Counted from the stretch's first letter, positions 7,626 to 18,833 are shown. The stretch is 64,000 nt of DNA from a virus (IMGVR_UViG_2681813233_000007), one strand, 5' to 3'. Notes: a model not told the origin generated them from the letters alone. Made by a program: numbers and translations.

Positions 7626-8624
7626 ATGCAATCACTGAATACTGTTACGGATCGCTTCTCCCTGGTAGAGAAAATCCGCAAACACACACCGCAGAACAAC
7701 CGAAATTATGTCATTCAGTCGGTACGAGACACATTCAACTCGCCAGAAACAAAAGAGCGTATCGCGCTGGGTGAGATGTATGGTTATTACGGTCATGGTC
7801 GCCGGGCGATGCACTATAACAAAACGAAAAGCCTGAACTTGCCGGAAGTCTCTGTTGTGATGGTAGATGGGAAGCCTGTTGTATTGGAGAACGTGCCGTC
7901 AAACAGGACTATCGACATTTCGATTGACGACAACGGCATTGTTACGCATACGCAGGAAATACTGGATACAGACACCGGGCGTATTGTTCAGGGCATGATT
8001 AATTCTGGTGCTGGTGGTTGGTCGTGGGCTACATCTGGTCCAGATTCATCGGTATCCCTGGTAAAGTCTTTCCACGGCTTTGATTACGTAACTGTGCCTA
8101 ACTATATCAGCCTCGACAAGAAAAGCCTGATGCTTGAATCAGCAGAAGAGCGCGATGCGGCTATTCATGCAGCACTTATCGAACAAGGTTTTACCGATAA
8201 CGCTGCTACGGATCTGGTTCACCACTTTTCAGCAATGAAAAATCAGCAAGCCATGCTCGAATCTGCACATCGTGAAGCCCTGGAATCAGAATTGATGCTC
8301 CTTGAAGTGGAAAACATACAGCTTCGAGATAAGCTGCGCGCTCAAACAGCGATGATGGAAAGCCAGGGGGAAAATGCAAAGCAATGCCGCCGGATTTTGC
8401 GTGACGCTATCCAGGAAATGCCTGTTTTTATCAGCGCAGAACAGCGCCGGGCGCTCTGCCGTATGCAGTCTGAAGATGATGCCCGCATAGTGGCTGCGAT
8501 GCTTGAATCTCTTGGGGCAAATGCTACTTATGGCTTACCGGTATCAGGCAAGAAAGAACCAGAGTTATCACCGAAGGAGAACAAAAACACCACCCCGTTA
8601 CTCTTCGTTTCTAGAAGGGGGTAA
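7626..8624 (+). CDS. Putative prohead protease/scaffold (Pro-like)
   Basis: 332 aa directly after the portal-like ORF; coiled-coil C-terminal half. Confidence 0.35.
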   Translation: MQSLNTVTDRFSLVEKIRKHTPQNNRNYVIQSVRDTFNSPETKERIALGEMYGYYGHGRRAMHYNKTKSLNLPEVSVVMVDGKPVVLENVPSNRTIDISIDDNGIVTHTQEILDTDTGRIVQGMINSGAGGWSWATSGPDSSVSLVKSFHGFDYVTVPNYISLDKKSLMLESAEERDAAIHAALIEQGFTDNAATDLVHHFSAMKNQQAMLESAHREALESELMLLEVENIQLRDKLRAQTAMMESQGENAKQCRRILRDAIQEMPVFISAEQRRALCRMQSEDDARIVAAMLESLGANATYGLPVSGKKEPELSPKENKNTTPLLFVSRRG

Positions 8625-8634
8625 TCGCCTTGTT

Positions 8635-8652
8635 AAGTTAAATTTCTAACAT
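8635..8652 (-). promoter_or_regulatory. Operator-like motif ATGTTAGAAATTTAACTT
   Basis: Member of the dispersed TGTTAGAAA motif family; upstream of the 8825 ORF. Confidence 0.45.
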
Positions 8653-8737
8653 AGTGTATTTATATACACTGTTGATCCTGGTGGATGGGATCGAGTAGGA
8701 TCGCGGTCACTGCTCCGGTAGCGACTGCCAAAAAAGC

Positions 8738-8764
8738 AAAAGCCGCTGAGAAGCGGCTTTTTGG
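8738..8764 (+). terminator. Rho-independent terminator
   Basis: GC hairpin AGCCGC-tgagaa-GCGGCT followed by a T-run after the 7626-8624 ORF. Confidence 0.6.
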
Positions 8765-8824
8765 GTGTATAAATCCACTGCCATAGATTTATACGGTAGA
8801 TAGATTTTTTCACGGAACTATCTG

Positions 8825-9787
8825 GTGAGTATTTTAAATTCAGTTTCAGTAACTTTCAACACTTCTGAGTATAAAAACAACACTGAATACCACAAAAAAA
8901 TCAAAGGTCATCAGTTGAGTTTTTTTGCTCGTCATAGCGGTCTTCTTTCCCCTTCACATAGCGCCATTATTGCCGAGTTCGCCAACCTGGCAGGGTCTAC
9001 CGATGAATACATGATCCGTCGCTCATATGCTGATATGTCCGAGATTACAGGACGCAGCATTTCTACTGTGCGCCGGGCATTTGCTGAAGCGACGAAGTGC
9101 GGAATGCTTGTTAAGCAACATCAGGTAGCGAATAACAATGCCCAGGTGTGTAACGTATATCGGTTTACGACACAATTTCTCCACTTCATTCATGTAGCAA
9201 TGGAGATAGGGGGTAAGCAGGGCATCAAATTTGCCAACGCCACAAAGCTGGTTAAGCAATTGATTTCAAAGGTACGTTATTTTTTTGAAACTGGGACCCC
9301 CCTGTTCAAATTGAACAAGTCCCCCCATGTTCAATTTGAACAGCCAATAGAAAATAAGAGTCACTCTATAGCCAAAAGAAGAGAAAGATCATGCGCGGTT
9401 CAGCCAAAGGCTTCACCAGCAGATAGTTCTCAAGCGGATAATGGGGGACTGGATAAAAAAACAGTAATCAGGGAAGAACATACCAACCACTGCCTGGCGG
9501 CGGCAAAAGCGAGAGCTGCAAAGCGTCGTTCAGACGAGGGGCACGCAAAACGGCAGGCTCTGTATCGTACCGCTGAAAAGCTGGCAAAAAAATTTGCATG
9601 GATACGTAGTGCCGCTACCGCAGTGAATAAGCCTAAACAATCCAGTGCCCTGGATTTCTCAATGGATTATTCTGGCTCCCAGGGGTGTGCAACCATTGGT
9701 GAAGCCTTTGACCTGATGAAACAGCGTGGCTATCTGTCTGAATTTGACCGTGAGGATTGGTCAATCCCTGCGGGATTTAGGGGATGA
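8825..9787 (+). CDS. HTH DNA-binding protein, possible KilA/RepL-region homolog (lytic replicon candidate)
   Basis: 320 aa; HTH-like segment MSEITGRSISTVRRAFAEA; internal inverted palindrome pair at 9304-9343; GTG start uncertain. Confidence 0.35.
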   Translation: MSILNSVSVTFNTSEYKNNTEYHKKIKGHQLSFFARHSGLLSPSHSAIIAEFANLAGSTDEYMIRRSYADMSEITGRSISTVRRAFAEATKCGMLVKQHQVANNNAQVCNVYRFTTQFLHFIHVAMEIGGKQGIKFANATKLVKQLISKVRYFFETGTPLFKLNKSPHVQFEQPIENKSHSIAKRRERSCAVQPKASPADSSQADNGGLDKKTVIREEHTNHCLAAAKARAAKRRSDEGHAKRQALYRTAEKLAKKFAWIRSAATAVNKPKQSSALDFSMDYSGSQGCATIGEAFDLMKQRGYLSEFDREDWSIPAGFRG

Positions 9788-9840
9788 CCTGTGTGTCTAC
9801 AAAACATCCCAATGATCGGAAAATGCTCGCTCGATAATTT

Positions 9841-9858
9841 GTGTTAGAAAATTAATTT
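9841..9858 (+). promoter_or_regulatory. Operator-like motif GTGTTAGAAAATTAATTT with inverted partial partner at 9861-9873
   Basis: Motif family member upstream of the first icd-ant module. Confidence 0.5.
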
Positions 9859-10200
9859 GCTGTTTCTAAATCGGAATGTATGATCTGCATCATCGTCTGA
9901 AGTCATCCATTGCTGAAATTTTTAGTTGATCTTCCATGTTTTCAGGCTTATATTCATGCCGTCGTAGCAAATTCTGCGACCGGGTTTGACAGCCTGAATA
10001 CTTACGCGGACAACCGCACATTTCCGATATTGCGGTATTTTTGTGTCCGTAAAACCACGTTACGCCCGAATTATGGTGGGGCGTGATGGGGAGGCTTCGG
10101 CCTGCTGGTTTCGTAAGTGCCAGTCTGTCAACCCTGTCACGTCCTGCCACCTGTTTGACAGCGGGTCGCAGGTTGTTTATCAACTTACGAGGCCGTAACT

Positions 10201-10425
10201 ATGGTTAATGCCAATCCTTGCTCACGTCCAGAATTCATCTGGCGTTTCCACTCCCTGCAAAAACACTGCGATCACTTCGCAATTGCCGCAACCGAAAAAG
10301 AAGCCCGTTCTCTGATCCCTGATCAGTATGGTGTTCTTACTGGTCGTTTCTCTACTTCCCCACAACCAAACACTAATCCCTGGTATCGCAATATTACCAA
10401 TCCCGGAATTGCGGAGGCACACTGA
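10201..10425 (+). CDS. Icd-like small protein (copy 1)
   Basis: 74 aa, motif EFIWRF(H/Y)S.QKH shared with the paralog at 49445; directly upstream of the Ant-like gene as in P1 immI. Confidence 0.5.
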   Translation: MVNANPCSRPEFIWRFHSLQKHCDHFAIAATEKEARSLIPDQYGVLTGRFSTSPQPNTNPWYRNITNPGIAEAH

Positions 10426-11132
10426 TGGAAATCTGCATTCTTGAAAAGCCATCAATGACCAGCATTGAGATCGCGGAGCTGGTGGGAAGTCGCCCGGATA
10501 ACGTTAAACGCACTATTGAACGCTTGAGTAAATCAGGTGTTATTCCACTTCCTCCAATGGAGGTTTCCGAAAATATCAATAACTTAGGATTTAAAGTTAA
10601 AAATTCACACTACGTCTTCGAAGGCGAGCAAGGCAAGCGTGACAGTATCATTGTCGTTGCGCAGCTTTCTCCCGAATTCACCGCCCGGCTGGTGGACCGC
10701 TGGCGCGAACTGGAAGAACAAGTACGCCAGCCGTTGACCGAAATAGAGATGATCGCCGCAATGGCTGCAAATGCAGTTCAGCAGCAAAAGCGGCTTCATG
10801 TTGTTGAGTCAAAGGTTAGCCAGGTGGTAGAAACCGTCGAGCAAATCAAGAAGGGCAACATGCCGGAAGGCTACATTGGCTACCGCCAGCTGGCGGCGAA
10901 ATGTGGCCTGACTGAAGCCAAATGCCGAAACCTGGTCAACGCTTACCGGATTCCCACCGATACACATGAGTTTTTAACTCCAGAGGGGGTATTGTCGCGT
11001 CGTTCCATCGTGGCCTTATCTCCCTTCATGAATGCTTTTAACCGGATGATGTCGGAGGCTGAACACCGAGGAAAACGCTGGTATCACCCCAAAATGGGGC
11101 AATTCCAGGTGATCGGTTGGGGAGGTGAGTGA
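10425..11132 (+). CDS. Antirepressor-like protein (Ant/KilA-type), copy 1
   Basis: 235 aa; N-terminal MTSIEIAELVG..DNVKRTIE shared with the 313-aa paralog at 49660. Confidence 0.55.
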   Translation: MEICILEKPSMTSIEIAELVGSRPDNVKRTIERLSKSGVIPLPPMEVSENINNLGFKVKNSHYVFEGEQGKRDSIIVVAQLSPEFTARLVDRWRELEEQVRQPLTEIEMIAAMAANAVQQQKRLHVVESKVSQVVETVEQIKKGNMPEGYIGYRQLAAKCGLTEAKCRNLVNAYRIPTDTHEFLTPEGVLSRRSIVALSPFMNAFNRMMSEAEHRGKRWYHPKMGQFQVIGWGGE

Positions 11133-11337: not shown

Positions 11338-11362
11338 GCCCCGGCCTGGCCGGGGCTTTTTT
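11338..11362. terminator. Bidirectional terminator hairpin GCCCCGGCC-TGG-CCGGGGC plus T-run
   Basis: Perfect 9/7-bp GC stem with TTTTTT; nearly the same hairpin recurs after the second ant copy. Confidence 0.6.
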
Positions 11363-11847
11363 CATGCCTCATTAGTTGAGGTTGCTGCGTCTCCGACTGG
11401 TAACAGAGCGGTATTGCGTGGTTCGCCAGCAGGCCAGCGATAGCCAGACACTCTTGATGTTGGGAATGCGCGAATATTAACCGCATCCCCCTGGTTCCCA
11501 CCCAGGACAAGCAGATCGCCATTGGCGCGGCGTCCGACAACGAAGCCTACGTGCCCACCGCCTACGCGGGTAAATACAACGATACATCCGTATGCCGGTG
11601 TATCTAATTTCTCGCCCCAATCCAGATAGGATTTTGCCGACTCAAATCTTGTTGAGCGGATGCCTACACGTTCCAGCATTGCACCGACAAATGCTGCGCA
11701 CCACGGCGTTTCATCGTCTTTAATTCCGCCGCGCTTGATGTCGCGCCAGAACTGAACGATTTCAGGGTTGTGTTTAGCGCCTTTTATTTCAGTCAGGCCA
11801 ATGTGCTTACGGGCTTCAATTAGCCAGCGAGGTTCAATGTTTGCCAT
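11362..11847 (-). CDS. Cell-wall peptidase-like protein (NlpC/P60- or CHAP-like Cys/His hydrolase)
   Basis: 161 aa; conserved Cys (TPWCAAFV) and His (GGHVGFVVG) in the typical spacing. Confidence 0.5.
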   Translation of the reverse strand: MANIEPRWLIEARKHIGLTEIKGAKHNPEIVQFWRDIKRGGIKDDETPWCAAFVGAMLERVGIRSTRFESAKSYLDWGEKLDTPAYGCIVVFTRVGGGHVGFVVGRRANGDLLVLGGNQGDAVNIRAFPTSRVSGYRWPAGEPRNTALLPVGDAATSTNEA

Positions 11848-11996: not shown

Positions 11997-14900
11997 TTGG
12001 ACAAACTACTTTATTCAATCAGTGAAGCCTCCAGCTTAGGCGAACTGATTGAAATTGTTAGTCGGTTGCATAAATTACGTGCTGTTGCGACCTTTGGCGT
12101 CAGGAAAGCCGATGGCGTCAGTATTCAGAAAACACGTCGTGCAGCAAACAATGCCGCAGTAAATCTTCTTAATTCCCTTCCGCCCGGCTTCGATGGGGCG
12201 AAATTAACTGACGAACAACGTCAGATTCTTGCCGGGTATACCGGTGAAGGCGGCCTGACAGATGGTGAGGGCAGCCAATACGAATACTACACGCCACAGT
12301 TTATGGCTGAAGGTATATGGGATCTGTTTGCTGACTACGGTATTGATGGCGGGCACGTACTGGAACCATCAGCGGGCACAGGTATTTTCCAGGAGACAAA
12401 ACGGCAGGGCATGATAATGACCAGCGCCGAACTGTCTCCGATTTCTGGTCGAATAAACCAGCTTTTGCACCCGGAAGACGATGTGAATATCGGGGCGTTT
12501 GAGGCGCTGGCGGCGAAAGATGCAATGTATGACCACGCTGTTGGTAACGTACCGTTTGGTGAAGGGCGTTCCGGCGTCGCCGGTCTTGATCCGGCATATG
12601 CAAACGAGAAGAACGTTGGCAATTACTTTGTGCTGCGCACGATCGACAAGGTTAAGCCTGGTGGGCTTATCGTATTGGTGGTGCCGAATGGCATGACTGA
12701 TGGTACGAAATACAAAAAATTGCGCGATAAAGTCAGCCGTAAAGCGGAATTTTTGGGCGCGCATCGTATGCCTTCCGGTACGTTCAGTGAATCAGGTACA
12801 GATACCGTGGTGGACGTATGGGTATTGCGTAAACACCCGGAAGCCTTCCTGGAGATGATCCCCGATACGGATGATTCGACGCTCAAATCGGCAAACGTCC
12901 TTTGGGATACCTTCCTCAAAGGAAAATGGTTTACAACCGAAGGGAAGCGATTTGTTTACGGCGACATGGAACGTACCAGCTTCCGCAATACCCTGGTGGT
13001 GAAAAAAGACGGTCGTGTATCCAATGAGTCGATGAAAACCGCGCTATCTCGTCGCTTTGATAGTCGCATCAATTGGGATTTGCTCGGCGTAACTACTCAG
13101 GCATGGCAGGGCGCGAAAGTGGGCGATAAACGCCTTGTAGGCGGTATCTGGCATGAGTTTGATGGTCTGAAATGGGTTAAGGACACGACAACCAAATCCT
13201 CCGCGCTTGATGTAAGTCGATATGGTGTTTCGACGTTTGGCGATCTGCAGATCGCGTTCCAGTCAACAAACGGGATTCTGGCTTTGTCATGGGACCAGAT
13301 ATCGGCGATCGCGTCCGACTATCCATCGGTTGTCAGTGATGAAGTGGCAGCAATGATTCGCTTTGCTGGCAAGCAGCGAGAAAAAGACAGGGAGCGCGTT
13401 ATGCGCGGTGCACTGATAGGTCAGTTGATCAACAAGGCACTTGATTTGCGTAACCTGGGGGTGAACGTTGATGACAAACTGGCAGATGCATCCCGCCTGG
13501 CGGCAGCAGAAGTTGCGAAGTATGGACCACCGCACGCGATTAAGCTGAATGGGCTTGCTGAAGCTGGCGCTAAAAACTGGATGACGTTCACTGGCAATGT
13601 GAAACAGGATGGTTCCACTTCTGACCTTCTGGCAGGGCGACTTGATGTAACGGATGGTGCTGCCGGTATTGACTTTACGCGTCCTGAACAAGTGATAGCA
13701 CATCTTTTTAGTGATGTAGCCCTTAATCCTATAACGCTGGGCGACTTTCGTGAGGCGTTTGCTGGTGAACTGCCAGAGGACGACGACGCGGCCCTTGAAT
13801 ACCTGGCGAAATTTGATGATATCGCTATTGATGGGTATGGCTGTCTGCTGCCGATGGACCGCGCCACCAGCGGCGATGTTGCAACCAAAACAGCACTGCT
13901 GGTGGGTTGGCGTGATGCGTCAACAGGTGAGCAGAAAGCGAACTTTGAGCGTCAGTTGGCGAAAATCGAAGAGAAACGCATTTTCACGCCACTAAATAAA
14001 GTCACCGTTAATCTGAACGCCCGCTGGCTGGATCGCCGCTTGATAAAAGAGTTCCTGGCAGAGCAGGGCTATGACGAGTTTAAGTACACTGAACCTGATC
14101 TGAAGGTCGTCGATGGCATTCTGGTATCTCCGGACGATTACGAAGGTAAGGACGGGGTATTTACCGGCTATCAGCTACGAACCGTAAACGGCAAAAACGG
14201 GAATGAGTTCAAGAAGGCCAACAATAAAGACGGCTTCCTGAACCAGTTAGAAAACTACCTGAACGGTGTTAAACCGCGTGGGCAGAACGCTAACGAGTAC
14301 CTGGATAAAATTGCTCAACTGGAAGTTAGCTTTAACGACTGGTTACGCACTCACCCGCAGGCTGATCAGATAGCCCGCGAGTATAACGACGCATTCAATG
14401 GTTTCATTCCGTTCACGCATTCTGACGCACCGCTTGGCCTGGAAGGGATTAGTGGAAAGCGCATTCCTCTGACTTATCAGAATGAAGAAGTTCGGCGCTT
14501 GTCAGAAGATGGGCGCGGCATCATGGGATTTGGTACCGGGCTGGGTAAAACCACGACCGCGCTTGCGCTTGAGGCGTATAACTTCGAAACAGGTCGCACT
14601 AAACGCACGTGTATTGTTGTTCCGAAGGCGGTTTATCAGAACTGGTATCACGAGGCACAGAGTTTCTACAGTGCTGATGCCTTCGCCAATATGATGTTTA
14701 TCGGTTTGGATGAAGTTCGTGATGACAGCGGAAATATTCTGACCGCGCCGGTGCTTGATGAAAATGGCGAACCACGCCTCGACAGTAACGGGCAGCCTCT
14801 TACCAGAAATGTTGTGAAAGAGTCCGCCAGCGCCGTTATCGTTCAGCGCATGAACATGATCCCGTCGTCAAATTGGCGAACGGTCATCATGACAAAAGAA

Positions 14901-17900
14901 CAATTCGCGTCTATCCCGCTACGAGAAAAAACCATCGAGGAGAACTCACAGCAAGCTGTCTTTAATGCTGTGGAAATGGGGCGTCTTGACCTGGCGTCTG
15001 GCAAACACCGTGATGCACAGAAGAAGAACAAGATTAAGGATCAGGCCGCGAATACCGGTACAACGAAGAAGCAGAATATCCCGTACTTTGAGGATATGAA
15101 CTTCGATAGCGTGATTGCCGACGAGGGGCATAACTACCGCAACTCCTTTAATGCCGGGCGTGAAGCGGGACAACTGGCATATTTGCCTAACCCGGCAGTA
15201 TCCAAGATGGCCCGCGACATGGCTGTAAAAGCTGCGTACATGATGAAACGCAACAACGGACGTGGTGTAGTCATGCTGACGGCAACTCCGCTGGTGAACA
15301 GTCCGATTGATGCCTTCAACATGCTGTCTACTGTCATTCCGCAGGAAGAGTGGATGCGCATGGGCATCATTACGCCTGATGATTTCGTTCGTGTGTTTGG
15401 CAAAACAGCCACAGTTCAGGTCCAGAAAATTTCCGGGGAAGTGGAAGAGAAGCAGGGGCTGGTGGGCTTCCAGAACCTTGACGGCCTGCGTGGTATTTTC
15501 CATCGTTGGACCACTCTGAAGACTGCTGCAGATGTCGGAGCGACGGTTAAAATTCCCGACATCATTGAGAACACCTTGCAGATCCCGATGACAGGGGAGC
15601 AGGAGACTGCTTATGAAGAGCTTCGTAAGCGTGCTCAGGAGTTAAGTCGCAATGATGAGCTGACAGTCGATGAAAACGGGCATATCACTAACGACAAACC
15701 AGATGATTTCATCTTCTCCATCATCCGTGACATGGACAAGGTTGCTATAGACCCGGATCTGTATGCCAGTGCGATTACATTCCAGTTCCCCGTTGAGCTT
15801 GCAGACCAGGTAAAAGCTATTGCTGATGCCTTGCCAAAAGTAGCTGGCGGTAAAGTGGCAGATGATGTTGATGAGGCCGAGGAAGACGGCGCTGGCGGGC
15901 TGGTCAGTACGCGTACCAGCAAGGTAGTGAAGACCGCTTTTAGTGAACATCCGACGCATGTTGAAATACGTGCCAGCATTGAACTGGAAGCTGAAATACT
16001 GAAGGCCATTGCGGCTGCCGGTATTGATATGCAGCAGGTATCGCACCCCATCCCGCCGAAGTATGCCGCGCTGATCGAAAATCTTCGTGAAGGTCTGAAG
16101 AACGGTAAGCAGATCGTCTTTATTGATGAAAAAGCCCAGCACCAGAAGCTGCGCCGTATTATCGCCAGTGCACTGCAAATGCCGGAGCAGGAGATTGGCA
16201 TTATCAATGCGACGACAGTTAGCCAGGCTGGCGGCATCAAGCTGAAGAAGGTGAATAAGCCGACCGAACCTACTCCAAACAAAAACGGTGAATACAAAGA
16301 AGGGGCATGGGAAACCTACTACAGCAAACTTGCACAATATGAGGATTATCTCTCAGCTAAAAATGATGCTGGCCTTGAGGGCATGGAAGGTATTGCCGCC
16401 GACTATAACGAAGGTCGCACGCGCATCATAATCTGTAACAAGAAGGCTGAAGTAGGTATTAACCTGCACATCGGGACAACCGATATCCATCACCTGACAC
16501 TACCCTGGACACCAGCCAGTATCGACCAACGAAATGGGCGCGGTGCGCGCGTAGGTTCACCGCAAGAAAAGGTCAATGTTCACTACTATTGTGGCAAAGG
16601 CACATTCGATGACTTCCGTCTGGATACGCTGAAACGTAAGAAAGACTGGATCAAGATGGTGATGACATCCGACATGTCAGAGATCGCCAATGGTGATGCG
16701 GATGATGCTGATGAACGCGCCATTATGCTGGCGGCAAACCCGGAAGAACGCCGCGCAATCATGGCTCGCCAGGCGCAAGTGCGTGAAGAACGTCTGAAAC
16801 TGAAAGCACAGCGCGAGGCCAACAATGCTCTCGATATCTACCTGAAAGCGGCAAACGCCGCCGGAAAAGATATCGGCATGATGGAGACAGAACTGAAAAG
16901 CGCGATGGAACAGATAGAGTATTACCAGCGCAATCTTGACGACCTGATAAAAGCGGGTACGAACAGGAATGGGCAAAAATACGCGCTTGAGCAGTTGAGT
17001 AGCTACAGAAAACGTGCGCGGGTGCTGCGGTTTGCGATCACCAGGGCAAAAGACGCGGATACCATAATGAAACGCTCTCGTGGTGATGTGGAGCGCGCTA
17101 TTAAGTCTGGTGTGCTGGATATCAGTATCGATGTTATTCAGAACCCACAGGAATATATGCGCACTGACAAGAATATCCTGTTGCATAAAGGTAGTTATTA
17201 CCGTGCAGTCATTGATGATCGCGAAACAACAGCGATTGTCCGGGTGGAAAAAATTGACGGTGAAAAAGCACAATACATCTGTCGTATCGCCTGGCTGGAT
17301 AGAGCAAGTCGTTACGCTCGATCACCGGGGTCAATCGTTACATTGCCGTTTGACTCTGTGATTGAAGCGGTAACTTTTGAAGAGGGGGTTGCTGAATCGC
17401 GCGCAACGGCTGCGCGTGGTGTTCAGTGCCACCAGCTATCAACAATACTTACTCGCGATCAGTTCTATGATGCTATTCGCAATGGGGTAATGAATGTTAT
17501 TGCTGGTAAACCTGGTAATGCATGGGGCGGTGGATCAGCTATTAAATACTGGGCATATCGCACAGAAGATGGTCAGATCGCGCTGTCATCGGCCTATGAT
17601 GGCGTGATAGGCCAAAAAATCGGGCGAGCATCGGATATAGCACCTGAACGATGGATATATCCTGATGGCAACGACGAGGCGCTGAAGCGTGAAGTGGCAA
17701 AAATACAAGCCAGTGATAACCCGCTGAATATCGTGGACGGAGAGGGATTCCTCCAGGCATTGTATGGGTATGATTACATCCAGGGAATGCAGGCATGGGG
17801 CGCACAGGCAACGATGGATGATGTTGCCAAGGAGTTCGAAAACTGGATGGCTGGGCGTGGTCTGTCAGGTCGTTCGCTTAATAAAGTCACTTCTGAAGAT

Positions 17901-18833
17901 ATTCTTAGCTTGTTCCGTAAACCGTCCGGAGAAGGTCTGGAATCATTCTGGAGGACCGTGCTGGCATACCGTTTATTCCAGGGCAGGATGAAAGCCTTTA
18001 GCAATATCGATGATATTGAACGGATGTTTAATCAGGTCAAGATCGCGAAAATTAAGGCGAAGATCGAAAAAACACGTTCTGCGCTGGTGGCCTGGCGCGA
18101 TGCATTGTTTGAGCAATATAAATCACTCAGTGATGCAGATGGATGGGCGGCGCTGGAACAGTTGACGAATAATGGGGTAGATGGGGCGAAACTCGCCATT
18201 GTCCAGGCTGATAACCCCCTGGAATCACCGGCAGCACAGTGGATTAAGGTGGGGGCTGTCATCAATGCATTTGATGAAAAACACATTAGTAAGGACGATT
18301 TTGCTGATGCTGTTTCTGTTAATCGCCTGGTAGAAATGGCTACCCGCCGCGCCCGTGAGTTGAAAGATGGCGACTATGTGAATGAGTTGCCGGATACGCT
18401 CAAATCGGCAACGTGGCAGGACTATGTATCGCTGAAAAACGGCGGGGCCACTGAATCAGAGATCGCGGAAAGGCTTGAGCAGGCTGAAAGCAAAAGAGAA
18501 GAGCAGGCGGCAGTGGCTGAAGCCAGAGCTGATGAAGCGGCAAATGATGACTATATCATTGTGGTTAATGATAAGCCTATTCGCGCTAAGGCGCGTGTTC
18601 GCGGGCGCTGGTGGAGCGTCAGCGAGGACGTTGGCGCGGTTTATCTCATTGCCGACCAACCAGGTTCCTCGACAATACGGAACGCCAAAGACGCGATTAA
18701 GAAGATTGGCGGGCGTTTCTGGAATTTTGAAGTGAATCCGGTCGCGGATGTGGACTTTGACCGTCCGGCGTGGATGGTATCTACGCGTTACTCGGTAGAT
18801 GAACTGCGTAAAATAATCGCCGATGCGGCTTAA
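11997..18833 (+). CDS. darB: DarB-like giant antirestriction protein: N6-adenine methyltransferase fused to SF2 helicase
   Basis: 2278 aa; SAM motif VLEPSAGTGIF, NVPFG (NPPF-like), helicase Walker A GFGTGLGKTT and DEGH box; size matches P1 DarB. Confidence 0.85.
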   Translation: MDKLLYSISEASSLGELIEIVSRLHKLRAVATFGVRKADGVSIQKTRRAANNAAVNLLNSLPPGFDGAKLTDEQRQILAGYTGEGGLTDGEGSQYEYYTPQFMAEGIWDLFADYGIDGGHVLEPSAGTGIFQETKRQGMIMTSAELSPISGRINQLLHPEDDVNIGAFEALAAKDAMYDHAVGNVPFGEGRSGVAGLDPAYANEKNVGNYFVLRTIDKVKPGGLIVLVVPNGMTDGTKYKKLRDKVSRKAEFLGAHRMPSGTFSESGTDTVVDVWVLRKHPEAFLEMIPDTDDSTLKSANVLWDTFLKGKWFTTEGKRFVYGDMERTSFRNTLVVKKDGRVSNESMKTALSRRFDSRINWDLLGVTTQAWQGAKVGDKRLVGGIWHEFDGLKWVKDTTTKSSALDVSRYGVSTFGDLQIAFQSTNGILALSWDQISAIASDYPSVVSDEVAAMIRFAGKQREKDRERVMRGALIGQLINKALDLRNLGVNVDDKLADASRLAAAEVAKYGPPHAIKLNGLAEAGAKNWMTFTGNVKQDGSTSDLLAGRLDVTDGAAGIDFTRPEQVIAHLFSDVALNPITLGDFREAFAGELPEDDDAALEYLAKFDDIAIDGYGCLLPMDRATSGDVATKTALLVGWRDASTGEQKANFERQLAKIEEKRIFTPLNKVTVNLNARWLDRRLIKEFLAEQGYDEFKYTEPDLKVVDGILVSPDDYEGKDGVFTGYQLRTVNGKNGNEFKKANNKDGFLNQLENYLNGVKPRGQNANEYLDKIAQLEVSFNDWLRTHPQADQIAREYNDAFNGFIPFTHSDAPLGLEGISGKRIPLTYQNEEVRRLSEDGRGIMGFGTGLGKTTTALALEAYNFETGRTKRTCIVVPKAVYQNWYHEAQSFYSADAFANMMFIGLDEVRDDSGNILTAPVLDENGEPRLDSNGQPLTRNVVKESASAVIVQRMNMIPSSNWRTVIMTKEQFASIPLREKTIEENSQQAVFNAVEMGRLDLASGKHRDAQKKNKIKDQAANTGTTKKQNIPYFEDMNFDSVIADEGHNYRNSFNAGREAGQLAYLPNPAVSKMARDMAVKAAYMMKRNNGRGVVMLTATPLVNSPIDAFNMLSTVIPQEEWMRMGIITPDDFVRVFGKTATVQVQKISGEVEEKQGLVGFQNLDGLRGIFHRWTTLKTAADVGATVKIPDIIENTLQIPMTGEQETAYEELRKRAQELSRNDELTVDENGHITNDKPDDFIFSIIRDMDKVAIDPDLYASAITFQFPVELADQVKAIADALPKVAGGKVADDVDEAEEDGAGGLVSTRTSKVVKTAFSEHPTHVEIRASIELEAEILKAIAAAGIDMQQVSHPIPPKYAALIENLREGLKNGKQIVFIDEKAQHQKLRRIIASALQMPEQEIGIINATTVSQAGGIKLKKVNKPTEPTPNKNGEYKEGAWETYYSKLAQYEDYLSAKNDAGLEGMEGIAADYNEGRTRIIICNKKAEVGINLHIGTTDIHHLTLPWTPASIDQRNGRGARVGSPQEKVNVHYYCGKGTFDDFRLDTLKRKKDWIKMVMTSDMSEIANGDADDADERAIMLAANPEERRAIMARQAQVREERLKLKAQREANNALDIYLKAANAAGKDIGMMETELKSAMEQIEYYQRNLDDLIKAGTNRNGQKYALEQLSSYRKRARVLRFAITRAKDADTIMKRSRGDVERAIKSGVLDISIDVIQNPQEYMRTDKNILLHKGSYYRAVIDDRETTAIVRVEKIDGEKAQYICRIAWLDRASRYARSPGSIVTLPFDSVIEAVTFEEGVAESRATAARGVQCHQLSTILTRDQFYDAIRNGVMNVIAGKPGNAWGGGSAIKYWAYRTEDGQIALSSAYDGVIGQKIGRASDIAPERWIYPDGNDEALKREVAKIQASDNPLNIVDGEGFLQALYGYDYIQGMQAWGAQATMDDVAKEFENWMAGRGLSGRSLNKVTSEDILSLFRKPSGEGLESFWRTVLAYRLFQGRMKAFSNIDDIERMFNQVKIAKIKAKIEKTRSALVAWRDALFEQYKSLSDADGWAALEQLTNNGVDGAKLAIVQADNPLESPAAQWIKVGAVINAFDEKHISKDDFADAVSVNRLVEMATRRARELKDGDYVNELPDTLKSATWQDYVSLKNGGATESEIAERLEQAESKREEQAAVAEARADEAANDDYIIVVNDKPIRAKARVRGRWWSVSEDVGAVYLIADQPGSSTIRNAKDAIKKIGGRFWNFEVNPVADVDFDRPAWMVSTRYSVDELRKIIADAA

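What the first reader, a model, noticed from the sequence alone, without database searches (positions are those of the whole stretch)
9304..9343. Pair of 15-bp palindromes, each the reverse complement of the other, inside the KilA/RepL-like ORF
TGTTCAAATTGAACA (9304-9318) and TGTTCAATTTGAACA (9329-9343), each preceded by a C-run, lie inside the coding sequence of 8825-9787. Such paired dyads inside a gene are unusual for coding sequence, and in P1 the lytic origin oriL lies within repL. This may be an origin or protein-binding site embedded in the gene.
Basis: partly seen in the sequence, partly recalled or inferred. Interest (0 to 1): 0.45.

Follow-up and report, generated by a model that had tools for sequence, protein, structure and literature searches.

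The report
Lytic replication origin inside repL
The two small palindromes are most likely where the phage's own replication starter protein (RepL) binds, inside its own gene, and related phages and plasmids share this layout, so the still-undefined RepL binding site of phage P1 can now be tested directly.

Summary
The dyads are TGTTCAAATTGAACA at 9303-9317 and TGTTCAATTTGAACA at 9328-9342, each after a C6 run.

The window is a D6-like phage-plasmid. ORF 8825-9787 is a RepL homologue (29% identical to P1 RepL) with no KilA domain.

Ten RepL clades carry the same module at the same aligned position:
- two units 23-25 bp apart;
- each unit is a pyrimidine run plus an N-TCA-NNN-TGA-N type dyad;
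- an A-rich tract follows.

In P1 this position lies in the 88-bp fragment that Huan et al. 2023 found sufficient for RepL-dependent amplification.

Within clades the arms are almost invariant, while the 3-nt centres vary freely. Between clades the arms change symmetrically. In the D6 clade the two dyads sit in different codon phases, so the constraint is on DNA, not protein. The module encodes a predicted disordered linker after a winged-helix domain, as in lambda ori inside gene O.

Best reading: these are RepL recognition dyads of oriL, next to an unwinding tract. This is inferred from sequence, not shown by experiment.

The dyads being exact reverse complements is a rare allele and not a conserved feature. 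A stable hairpin is not conserved either.

Verdict: a new member of a known kind, of moderate interest.

The parts
8825..9787 (+). repL-type lytic replication initiator gene (320 aa, GTG start). It contains the origin module.
   Evidence: 97% nt identity to phage D6 orf20 'lytic replication protein'. 29% aa identity to P1 RepL over 92% of its length. Homologues carry the precomputed Pfam family PF26868 Phage_P1_RepL. PHROG 2418, E 5e-129, the same family as P1 RepL. AF2 model: winged-helix domain about aa 20-157, residues 162-214 disordered, C-terminal long helix.
9253..9265 (-). IHF-consensus match (AATCAATTGCTTA) in the most AT-rich 40-nt stretch of the gene. Possible accessory site.
   Evidence: Regex scan and AT profile. 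P1 has an annotated IHF site/AT1 at the equivalent side of its repeats, but it is dispensable there. This is a consensus match only.
9276..9290 (+). T-rich tract GTTATTTTTTTGAAA directly upstream of the repeats.
   Evidence: Sequence. The equivalent T-rich stretch in P1 is AT1. Function not established.
9297..9302 (+). C6 run of repeat unit 1.
   Evidence: Sequence. Identical in the E. fergusonii clade despite 70% overall nt identity. A pyrimidine run precedes the left half-site in nearly all clades.
9303..9317 (.). Dyad 1 (distal): TGTTCA-AAT-TGAACA.
   Evidence: Arms invariant between the D6 and E. fergusonii clades. Starts at codon position 2 (encodes LFKLN).
9321..9326 (+). C6 run of repeat unit 2.
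9328..9342 (.). Dyad 2 (proximal to the A-rich tract): TGTTCA-ATT-TGAACA.
   Evidence: Starts at codon position 3 (encodes VQFEQ), a different reading phase from dyad 1. It aligns with the P1 element TGTCAGGATGACG, which is part of the minimal T5 origin fragment. The proximal dyad keeps its symmetry through double changes across 10 clades.
9343..9392 (+). A-rich, purine-rich tract (25 A of 50 nt; 66% A+T) ending in GATC (9387-9390). A 13-mer-like GATCTTTCTCTTC lies on the minus strand (9378-9390). Candidate unwinding element, the counterpart of P1 AT2.
   Evidence: Composition and motif scan. Aligns with P1 AT2, whose synonymous mutation abolishes RepL-driven amplification. The block around AGAGAAAGATCATGC is the best-conserved 46 nt of the gene between clades and is identical in the 34%-identity JGI clade.
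8767..8794 (.). Inverted repeat GTATAAATC-N10-GATTTATAC in the repL upstream region. Candidate operator over a weak promoter-like TTGGGT-17-TAGATT read by eye. Whether it belongs to the replicon is uncertain.
   Evidence: the repeat finder I6. Unique in the window. The promoter scan did not list it.

Best explanation
The paired dyads are the initiator-recognition elements of the lytic origin (oriL) of this D6-type phage-plasmid. The origin is embedded in the part of repL that encodes the flexible linker of RepL.

Proposed mechanism (inferred):
1. After derepression, repL is transcribed and translated.
2. RepL binds each TGTTCA-N3-TGAACA dyad through its N-terminal winged-helix domain, probably as a dimer. 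The two bound units sit 25 bp apart.
3. This nucleoprotein complex, helped by transcription through the site, opens the adjacent A-rich tract (9343-9392, with a GATC/13-mer-like end) or the T-rich tract on the other side.
4. The host replisome is then loaded.

The layout is that of lambda ori inside gene O, reduced to two iterons.

Shown here: the module, its positional homology to the functional P1 fragment, DNA-level selection on the arms, and symmetric covariation.

Inferred: that RepL is the binding protein, that it binds as a dimer, and which flank melts.
For: 1. Homology. The ORF is a RepL. In P1, oriL is annotated inside repL.

2. Position. In protein-guided codon alignments the dyads align with P1 CCCCC-A-TGTCA-AAA-TGATA / CCCCCTCCCCC-TGTCA-GGA-TGACG, followed by AT2. 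P1's 88-bp T5 fragment, which is sufficient in trans, consists of the second element plus AT2.

3. Ten clades carry two units 23-25 bp apart at this place, followed by an A-rich tract:
- D6-like
- E. fergusonii-like
- JGI/Enterobacter/Raoultella
- Lg94
- P1
- Vibrio and E. cloacae conjugative plasmids
- Xenorhabdus
- Pantoea
- L122
- L124

4. DNA-level constraint.
- Window vs E. fergusonii: arms 24/24 and C runs 12/12 identical, against 69% elsewhere (P about 2e-6). Other positions inside the element are 4/10 identical. Synonymous third positions are 9/9 identical against 105/186 elsewhere (Fisher P=0.007).
- Enterobacter clade: arms 25/28 invariant against 42% elsewhere (P=5e-7), centres 0/6 invariant.

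5. The two D6 dyads (and those of L122) lie in different codon phases, so identical DNA encodes different peptides.

6. Symmetric covariation of the proximal dyad: 95.8% of cells paired against 75% in shuffles (0/500 shuffles as high). Four of 6 pairs have changes on both sides. Slid controls give 16-49%.

8. The dyad is unique in the 64 kb window. That fits a single origin rather than an operator network.
Against: - No experiment exists for the D6-type element.
- The dyads themselves have never been mutated, even in P1. The AT2* allele left them intact.
- The D6 A-rich tract is only 66% A+T and is not the most AT-rich part of the gene.
- GC skew shows no switch at this locus.
- There is no DnaA box. 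These boxes are dispensable in P1.
- Within-clade polymorphism is too low to show constraint.
- Rows in the covariation tables are phylogenetically related, and two dyads of one element are not independent.
- Symmetric covariation would equally fit a hairpin.
- The C runs are not explained by a symmetric dimer site.
Confidence: 0.65

Rival explanations
1. The element works as a DNA structure (hairpin or cruciform in unwound or single-stranded DNA), for example as a priming, nicking or helicase-loading signal, rather than as a duplex binding site.
For: In the window the top strand folds into a 16-bp hairpin that pairs dyad 1 with dyad 2 (-16.4 kcal/mol, z -7.15, 0/200 shuffles as good). Symmetric covariation is what a stem would also show.
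Against: - The homologous P1 region, which is functional, has no significant fold (-4.4 kcal/mol, z -0.58).
- The perfect dyad1:dyad2 complementarity is a rare allele (0 vs 22 in IMG/VR).
- Distal dyads in six clades have degenerate right arms.
- Both Lg94 copies carry the same arm mismatch.
- Stems of 5-7 bp with 3-nt loops are weak.
- RepL has no HUH-type nuclease domain in Pfam.
Confidence: 0.1
2. The dyads bind a protein other than RepL (a phage repressor or a host factor) that regulates repL expression, for example as a transcription roadblock, or licenses the origin.
For: Dyad sites of this size are typical of dimeric regulators. The site lies inside the transcribed gene. The Enterobacter-clade dyads each contain two GATC sites, a possible Dam/SeqA target.
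Against: - The half-site changes from clade to clade together with the RepL lineage, in the same hosts. A host factor would demand a constant site.
- There is no other copy in the 64 kb window, unlike repressor operators.
- It is not a LexA box: the spacing is CTG-N11-CAG, not N10 (read from the sequence).
- There is no P1-type C1 operator anywhere in the window.
Confidence: 0.1
3. The repeat reflects a protein-level tandem peptide motif (P-x-Q-N-D twice in most RepL proteins) or an mRNA structure, and the DNA dyads are a by-product.
For: Most distant RepL proteins have a duplicated PxxQ[NS][DE] peptide at this place. Units 24 bp apart are in frame in those clades.
Against: - In the D6/E. fergusonii clade (25 bp) and the L122 clade (23 bp) the two copies are in different codon phases and encode unrelated peptides (LFKLN vs VQFEQ; TPNCH vs RQNGV), yet the DNA arms are kept.
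- Synonymous positions in arms and C runs are 9/9 conserved.
- The region is predicted disordered.
- No Rfam family matches here.
- P1 has no stable fold.
Confidence: 0.05

Closest known systems
Bacteriophage P1 lytic replicon (repL with internal oriL; AT2 region of Huan et al. 2023, PMC9948254)
   Same: - Homologous initiator: 29% identity, same PHROG and Pfam family.
- The origin module lies at the same aligned place in the gene.
- Two C-run + dyad units are followed by an A-rich tract ending in GATC.
- The P1 counterpart lies in the experimentally sufficient 88-bp fragment.
   Different: - Half-site TGTTCA (6-7 bp arms, perfect in both copies) instead of TGTCA (5 bp, imperfect).
- Units 25 bp apart, not 24, so the copies are in different codon phases.
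- No kilA upstream, no P1-type C1 operator, no DnaA boxes.
- repL sits between the head protease gene and the immI/c4 region rather than after ant-kilA.
- The A-rich tract is less AT-rich: 66% against about 80% (P1 figure from the paper).
Phage lambda ori inside gene O (four O-binding iterons plus AT-rich region)
   Same: - The origin lies inside the initiator's own coding sequence, directly after the N-terminal DNA-binding domain, in a linker.
- Dyad-symmetric repeats are spaced 20-24 bp apart.
- An A-rich purine tract of similar look follows (ACAAAAGA...AAAAGAAAAAAGAAAAGAT).
   Different: - Two repeats instead of four.
- Different repeat sequence.
- No detectable sequence homology between RepL and lambda O (hhalign probability 0.7%). 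There is only a weak link of the RepL N-terminal half to PHROG 391 'O-like' (E 9e-7), a family that lambda O matches through its C-terminal half.
- No P-like helicase loader gene next to repL.
Iteron-type theta plasmid origins (Rep_3/RepA family, e.g. P1 oriR, pSC101, F)
   Same: Repeated initiator sites lie next to an A/T-rich unwinding element, and the initiator is a winged-helix protein.
   Different: - Those origins have 3-7 direct, asymmetric 17-22 bp iterons outside the rep gene, usually with DnaA boxes.
- Here there are only two units, each with internal dyad symmetry, inside the gene and without a DnaA box.
- RepL gives no Rep_3 match.

Membership tests
P1-type lytic replicon (RepL/oriL) | Initiator is a member of the RepL protein family | tested here: met
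   tblastn gives 29% identity over 92% of the length to P1 RepL, E 1e-15. PHROG 2418 at E 5e-129, shared with P1 RepL. Homologues are precomputed as PF26868 Phage_P1_RepL. The local Pfam copy lacks this model.
P1-type lytic replicon (RepL/oriL) | Cis-acting origin lies inside repL, in the second half, around the AT2 region | tested here: met
   The dyads and A-rich tract align codon-for-codon with the P1 C-run repeats and AT2. This is positional homology only; function was not tested.
P1-type lytic replicon (RepL/oriL) | RepL-dependent amplification of a plasmid carrying the fragment | not testable with these tools
   Requires the assay of Huan et al. 2023 with the D6-type protein and fragment.
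P1-type lytic replicon (RepL/oriL) | Operon kilA-repL driven by a C1-repressed promoter (P53/Op53) | tested here: not met
   No KilA domain or gene upstream. No match to the P1 C1 operator consensus within 3 mismatches in 64 kb. A different inverted repeat lies upstream at 8767-8794.
P1-type lytic replicon (RepL/oriL) | DnaA boxes and IHF site flanking the origin (annotated in P1, dispensable there) | tested here: inconclusive
   No TTWTNCACA box in 8600-10000. One IHF-consensus match at 9253-9265 on the minus strand.
Lambda-type origin (ori within initiator gene O) | Origin repeats lie within the initiator ORF, in the interdomain linker, followed by an A/T-rich tract | tested here: met
   AF2 model: dyads and tract encode residues about 158-190, within or next to the pLDDT<50 segment 162-214 that follows the winged-helix domain. 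In lambda the iterons start right after the Phage_rep_O domain.
Lambda-type origin (ori within initiator gene O) | Initiator homologous to lambda O (Pfam Phage_rep_O) | tested here: not met
   hhalign probability 0.7%. No Phage_rep_O hit. Only a weak PHROG 391 hit.
Lambda-type origin (ori within initiator gene O) | Four iterons bound by initiator dimers (O-some) | tested here: not met
   Only two units are present in every RepL clade examined. Binding is not testable here.
Rolling-circle origin (hairpin nick site plus HUH Rep) | HUH/Rep_1/Rep_2-type nuclease and a conserved stem-loop | tested here: not met
   No such Pfam domain. The stem-loop is not conserved in P1.
LexA (SOS) box | CTG-N10-CAG spacing | tested here: not met
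   The dyads read TGT-N9-ACA in the D6 clade and CTG-N11-CAG in the Enterobacter clade (sequences). The spacing is one base too long.

The most novel reading that the evidence does not exclude
RepL-family origins are a minimal, two-iteron, lambda-ori-like module. Its half-site code (positions +-3 to +-5 around an N3 centre: TGTTCA, TGATCA, TGTCA, GGTCA, ACGCCA) co-evolves with the RepL winged helix. Natural RepL/oriL pairs would then be mutually orthogonal. The undefined P1 RepL binding site would be the TGTCA-N3-TGAC element just upstream of AT2. The asymmetric C run would be a second, unexplained recognition or structural element.
Probability: 0.4. Interest if true: 0.55.

Novelty: new member of a known kind. 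Interest (0 to 1): 0.45.

Why it matters
P1 RepL/oriL is used in PAC vectors, copy-number switches and biosensor amplifiers. Even so, the 2023 study states that the exact oriL sequence and the RepL mechanism are unknown.

The comparison started by this finding gives a concrete, testable candidate for the RepL recognition site. It also offers a family of natural variants with different half-sites. These could serve as orthogonal inducible replicons.

The result also locates the lytic origin of D6-like phage-plasmids. They are common in E. coli, Salmonella and Shigella: 118 plasmid records carry this gene.

Tried and rejected
- GC skew shows no switch near 9300. The profile follows gene orientation and is uninformative.
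- DnaA boxes are absent from repL.
- The P1 C1 operator consensus has 0 matches with up to 3 mismatches.
- The upstream inverted-repeat half-site is not repeated elsewhere above chance.
- Rfam finds nothing over the dyads. It finds only the C4/immI RNAs downstream.
- The LexA box is rejected on spacing.
- A frameshift or phase-variation reading of the C runs is rejected: no alternative + strand ORF, and the runs vary by substitution, not length.
- A conserved hairpin is rejected because P1 lacks a significant fold.
- The within-clade polymorphism test was not significant, because diversity is too low (P1 2/91 vs 38/755; D6 4/96 vs 33/867).
- RepL shows no sequence homology to lambda O.
- No solved RepL structure exists. 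Fold searches give only generic winged-helix matches.
- NCBIfam gives no hit.
- The alignment of distant RepLs was too divergent for a pattern scan.
- The metagenome scan with P0026 found nothing.
- The genome-contig scan returned only two P1-like loci.
- The D6 genome paper (Gilcrease and Casjens 2018) and the P1 genome paper (Lobocka 2004) are not held. The 1989-1996 P1 replicon papers were not looked up. I therefore cannot exclude that one of these papers already mentions the repeats.
- Four full-text searches found no paper describing the repeats.

Full report
**1. What is in the sequence**

The two 15-mers are real.

- Each 15-mer follows a C6 run (9297-9302 and 9321-9326).
- Each is the exact reverse complement of the other.
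- Both lie in ORF 8825-9787 on the + strand.

A single short dyad is not unusual. The window has 24 perfect 6+3+6 dyads, against 16.4 expected. Two dyads with the same arms 15-40 bp apart never arose in 300 first-order Markov simulations. No further copy, even with two mismatches, exists in the 64 kb window.

**2. Context**

The window is a D6-like phage-plasmid. It is 97% identical to Escherichia phage D6 over 8600-10000. The ORF itself is 100% identical to that of E. coli plasmid CP057047, and 118 plasmid records from Escherichia, Salmonella and Shigella carry it.

D6 annotates the ORF as 'lytic replication protein, similar to P1 repL'. It sits between the head protease gene and an icd/antirepressor module.

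- The protein is 29% identical to P1 RepL over 92% of its length.
- It falls in the same PHROG as P1 RepL (phrog_2418, E 5e-129).
- Its relatives are precomputed as Pfam PF26868 Phage_P1_RepL.

The family is small: 33 clusters at 50% identity among 1.84 billion representative proteins.

**3. Link to the P1 origin**

P1 oriL is annotated as lying inside repL.

Huan et al. 2023 (PMC9948254) report the following:

- Synonymous changes in a 43-bp A/T-rich stretch, AT2, abolish RepL-driven plasmid amplification.
- The IHF and DnaA sites are dispensable.
- Whether RepL binds AT2 or the preceding sequence is unknown.

Their smallest fragment that works in trans, T5, is ccccctccccctgtcaggatgacg + AT2 + about 20 nt. 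It is 88 nt long, at positions 470-557 of P1 repL.

In P1 the sequence just upstream of AT2 reads CCCCC-A-TGTCA-AAA-TGATA-CCCCCTCCCCC-TGTCA-GGA-TGACG. In a protein-guided codon alignment this is exactly where the window has CCCCCC-TGTTCA-AAT-TGAACA-AGT-CCCCCC-A-TGTTCA-ATT-TGAACA. Both are followed by a similar A-rich tract: CCAATAGAAAATAAGAGTCAC...AAAGATCA in the window and GGCAATAAAGAATAAGAAGTCAC...AAAGATCA in P1.

The window's dyads are therefore the counterparts of two P1 elements. The second P1 element is inside the experimentally sufficient origin fragment.

**4. The module is family-wide**

I collected repL loci from plasmid, phage, IMG/VR, JGI and Logan records. At the same aligned place every clade has two units 23-25 bp apart. 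Each unit is a pyrimidine or C run plus a dyad with a 3-nt centre. An A-rich tract follows.

| Clade | Dyad |
|---|---|
| D6-like and E. fergusonii-like | TGTTCA-N3-TGAACA |
| JGI / Enterobacter / Raoultella / Lg93 | CTGATCA-N3-TGATCAG |
| Lg94 | CTGCTCA-N3-TGAACAG |
| P1 | TGTCA-N3-TGAyr |
| Vibrio and E. cloacae conjugative plasmids | TGTCA-AAA-TGACA |
| Xenorhabdus and L124 | GATCA-TTT-TGATC |
| Pantoea | GGTCA-AAC-TGACC |
| L122 | ACGCCA-AAA-TGGCGT |

The dyad next to the A-rich tract is the better palindrome. The distal dyad often keeps only its left arm.

**5. The constraint is on DNA**

- *Window vs E. fergusonii clade* (70% nt, 65% aa identity). All 24 arm positions and all 12 C-run positions are identical, but only 4 of the 10 other positions inside the element. 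Elsewhere in the gene 69% of positions are identical, giving P about 2e-6 for 36/36. Synonymous third positions are conserved 9/9 in the arms and C runs, against 105/186 elsewhere (Fisher P=0.007).
- *Five sequences of the Enterobacter clade* (63-80% nt identity). The arms are invariant at 25/28 columns, against 42% for the rest of the gene (P=5e-7). The centres are invariant at 0/6 columns. The most conserved 30-column windows of the whole gene lie on the dyads and the start of the A tract.
- *Codon phase.* In the D6 clade the units are 25 bp apart, and in the L122 clade 23 bp. The same DNA arms are therefore read in two different codon phases and give unrelated peptides: LFKLN vs VQFEQ, and TPNCH vs RQNGV. 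A peptide repeat cannot explain that.
- *Covariation across clades.* The proximal dyad keeps its symmetry through double changes. 95.8% of cells are paired, against 75% in shuffles (0/500 shuffles as high). Four of six pairs have changes on both sides. Slid controls give 16-49% (with both dyads).

The sequences are related, and the G-T pairs that the tool counts as standard are not symmetric in duplex DNA. These numbers are therefore supportive, not proof.

**6. Protein side**

The AF2 model has mean pLDDT 65. It is good for residues 20-157 and shows a winged-helix domain. Residues 162-214 have pLDDT below 50. A long C-terminal helix follows.

The dyads and the A tract encode roughly residues 158-190. 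The origin is therefore written into a linker where protein constraint is weak.

**7. Hairpin or duplex site?**

In the window the top strand can form a 16-bp hairpin between dyad 1 and dyad 2 (-16.4 kcal/mol, z -7.15). The functional P1 region has no significant fold (z -0.58).

The window's perfect complementarity rests on a rare allele with centre ATT. That allele has 0 exact hits in IMG/VR, against 22 for the usual AAA allele. A stable structure is therefore not a family property. A duplex protein-binding site is more likely.

**8. Comparison with known systems**

The closest relative is the P1 lytic replicon. The initiator family and module position are the same. The differences are:

- the half-site and the unit spacing differ;
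- there is no kilA;
- there is no P1-type C1 operator;
- there is no DnaA box.

The closest analogue in design is lambda ori:

- four dyad-symmetric iterons (starts 20, 24 and 23 bp apart) lie inside gene O;
- they begin right after the N-terminal DNA-binding domain;
- an A-rich tract of very similar look follows.

RepL and O show no direct sequence homology. The only link is weak. RepL's N-terminal half matches PHROG 391 'replication initiation O-like' (E 9e-7). Lambda O matches that family only through its C-terminal half.

**9. Mechanism proposed**

RepL dimers bind the two dyads. The complex, with transcription through the site, opens a neighbouring tract. The favoured candidate is the A-rich tract 9343-9392, by homology with P1 AT2. 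The tract is only 66% A+T, and the T-rich side at 9251-9292 is more AT-rich.

These steps are inferred. The role of the C runs is unexplained.

**10. Verdict**

The element is a new member of a known kind, an origin inside its initiator gene that is homologous to P1 oriL.

The added value is a family-wide, testable prediction of the RepL recognition sequence. I found no description of it in the searchable literature. The older P1 papers and the D6 paper could not be read.

Noticed in passing
window 9948-10154 (and 10201-11132): A P1-type immI region lies directly downstream of repL. Rfam finds the c4-a1b1 target (9948-10000, 55.9 bits) and C4 antisense RNA (10069-10154, 69.6 bits). An isrK-like hit is just below its gathering score. 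An icd-like ORF and a Rha/antirepressor ORF (10425-11132) follow. In P1 this module lies upstream of kilA-repL, so the order is reversed here.
   Followed up: partly
window 8767-8794: A perfect 9-bp inverted repeat GTATAAATC-N10-GATTTATAC lies in the repL upstream region. It overlaps a direct repeat ATAGATTT (8783, 8800) and a weak promoter-like TTGGGT-17-TAGATT. It is unique in the window. It may be the operator that makes this replicon repressor-sensitive, since no P1-type C1 operator is present.
   Followed up: partly
window 8738-8761: A 10-bp GC-rich stem (AAAAGCCGCT/AGCGGCTTTT) flanked by A and T runs looks like a bidirectional intrinsic terminator. It lies between the head protease gene and repL, which implies repL has its own promoter.
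   Followed up: no
L006, L007, L009, L092, L093 (repL linker region): In the Enterobacter/Raoultella/JGI clade each dyad (CTGATCA-N3-TGATCAG) contains two GATC sites. That puts four Dam sites within about 45 bp of the putative origin, reminiscent of Dam/SeqA-controlled origins. The D6 and P1 types have only one GATC, at the end of the A tract.
   Followed up: no
L097 (Vibrio parahaemolyticus pLH214-1) and L099 (Enterobacter cloacae pWP8-W19-CRE-02_1): RepL homologues with the same two-unit module occur on conjugative (MOBC, MPF_T) plasmids, next to an Icd-like gene. These are not phage-plasmids. These proteins lack the otherwise invariant C-terminal IP-GFRG motif.
   Followed up: no
L094 2501-3508 (Lg94): Both dyad copies are identical 17-mers, including the centre (CTGCTCA-TGG-TGAACAG), and share the same arm mismatch. 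This suggests recent duplication or gene conversion between the two units. The arm is a hybrid between the D6-type and Enterobacter-type half-sites.
   Followed up: no
window 9371-9392 vs L006: The block AGAGAAAGATCATGC at the 3' end of the A-rich tract is identical between the D6-like elements and the JGI clade, whose RepL is only 34% identical. It is the best-conserved stretch of the gene between the D6 and E. fergusonii clades (43/46).
   Followed up: partly
window 11997-18833: A 2278-aa ORF is homologous to P1 DarB (SNF2/methyltransferase-type anti-restriction protein). It lies downstream of a CHAP/TIGR02594-type peptidoglycan hydrolase on the opposite strand (11362-11847). The same neighbourhood (portal, protease, repL, hydrolase, darB) is conserved in all D6-like and Enterobacter-type elements retrieved.
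   Followed up: no
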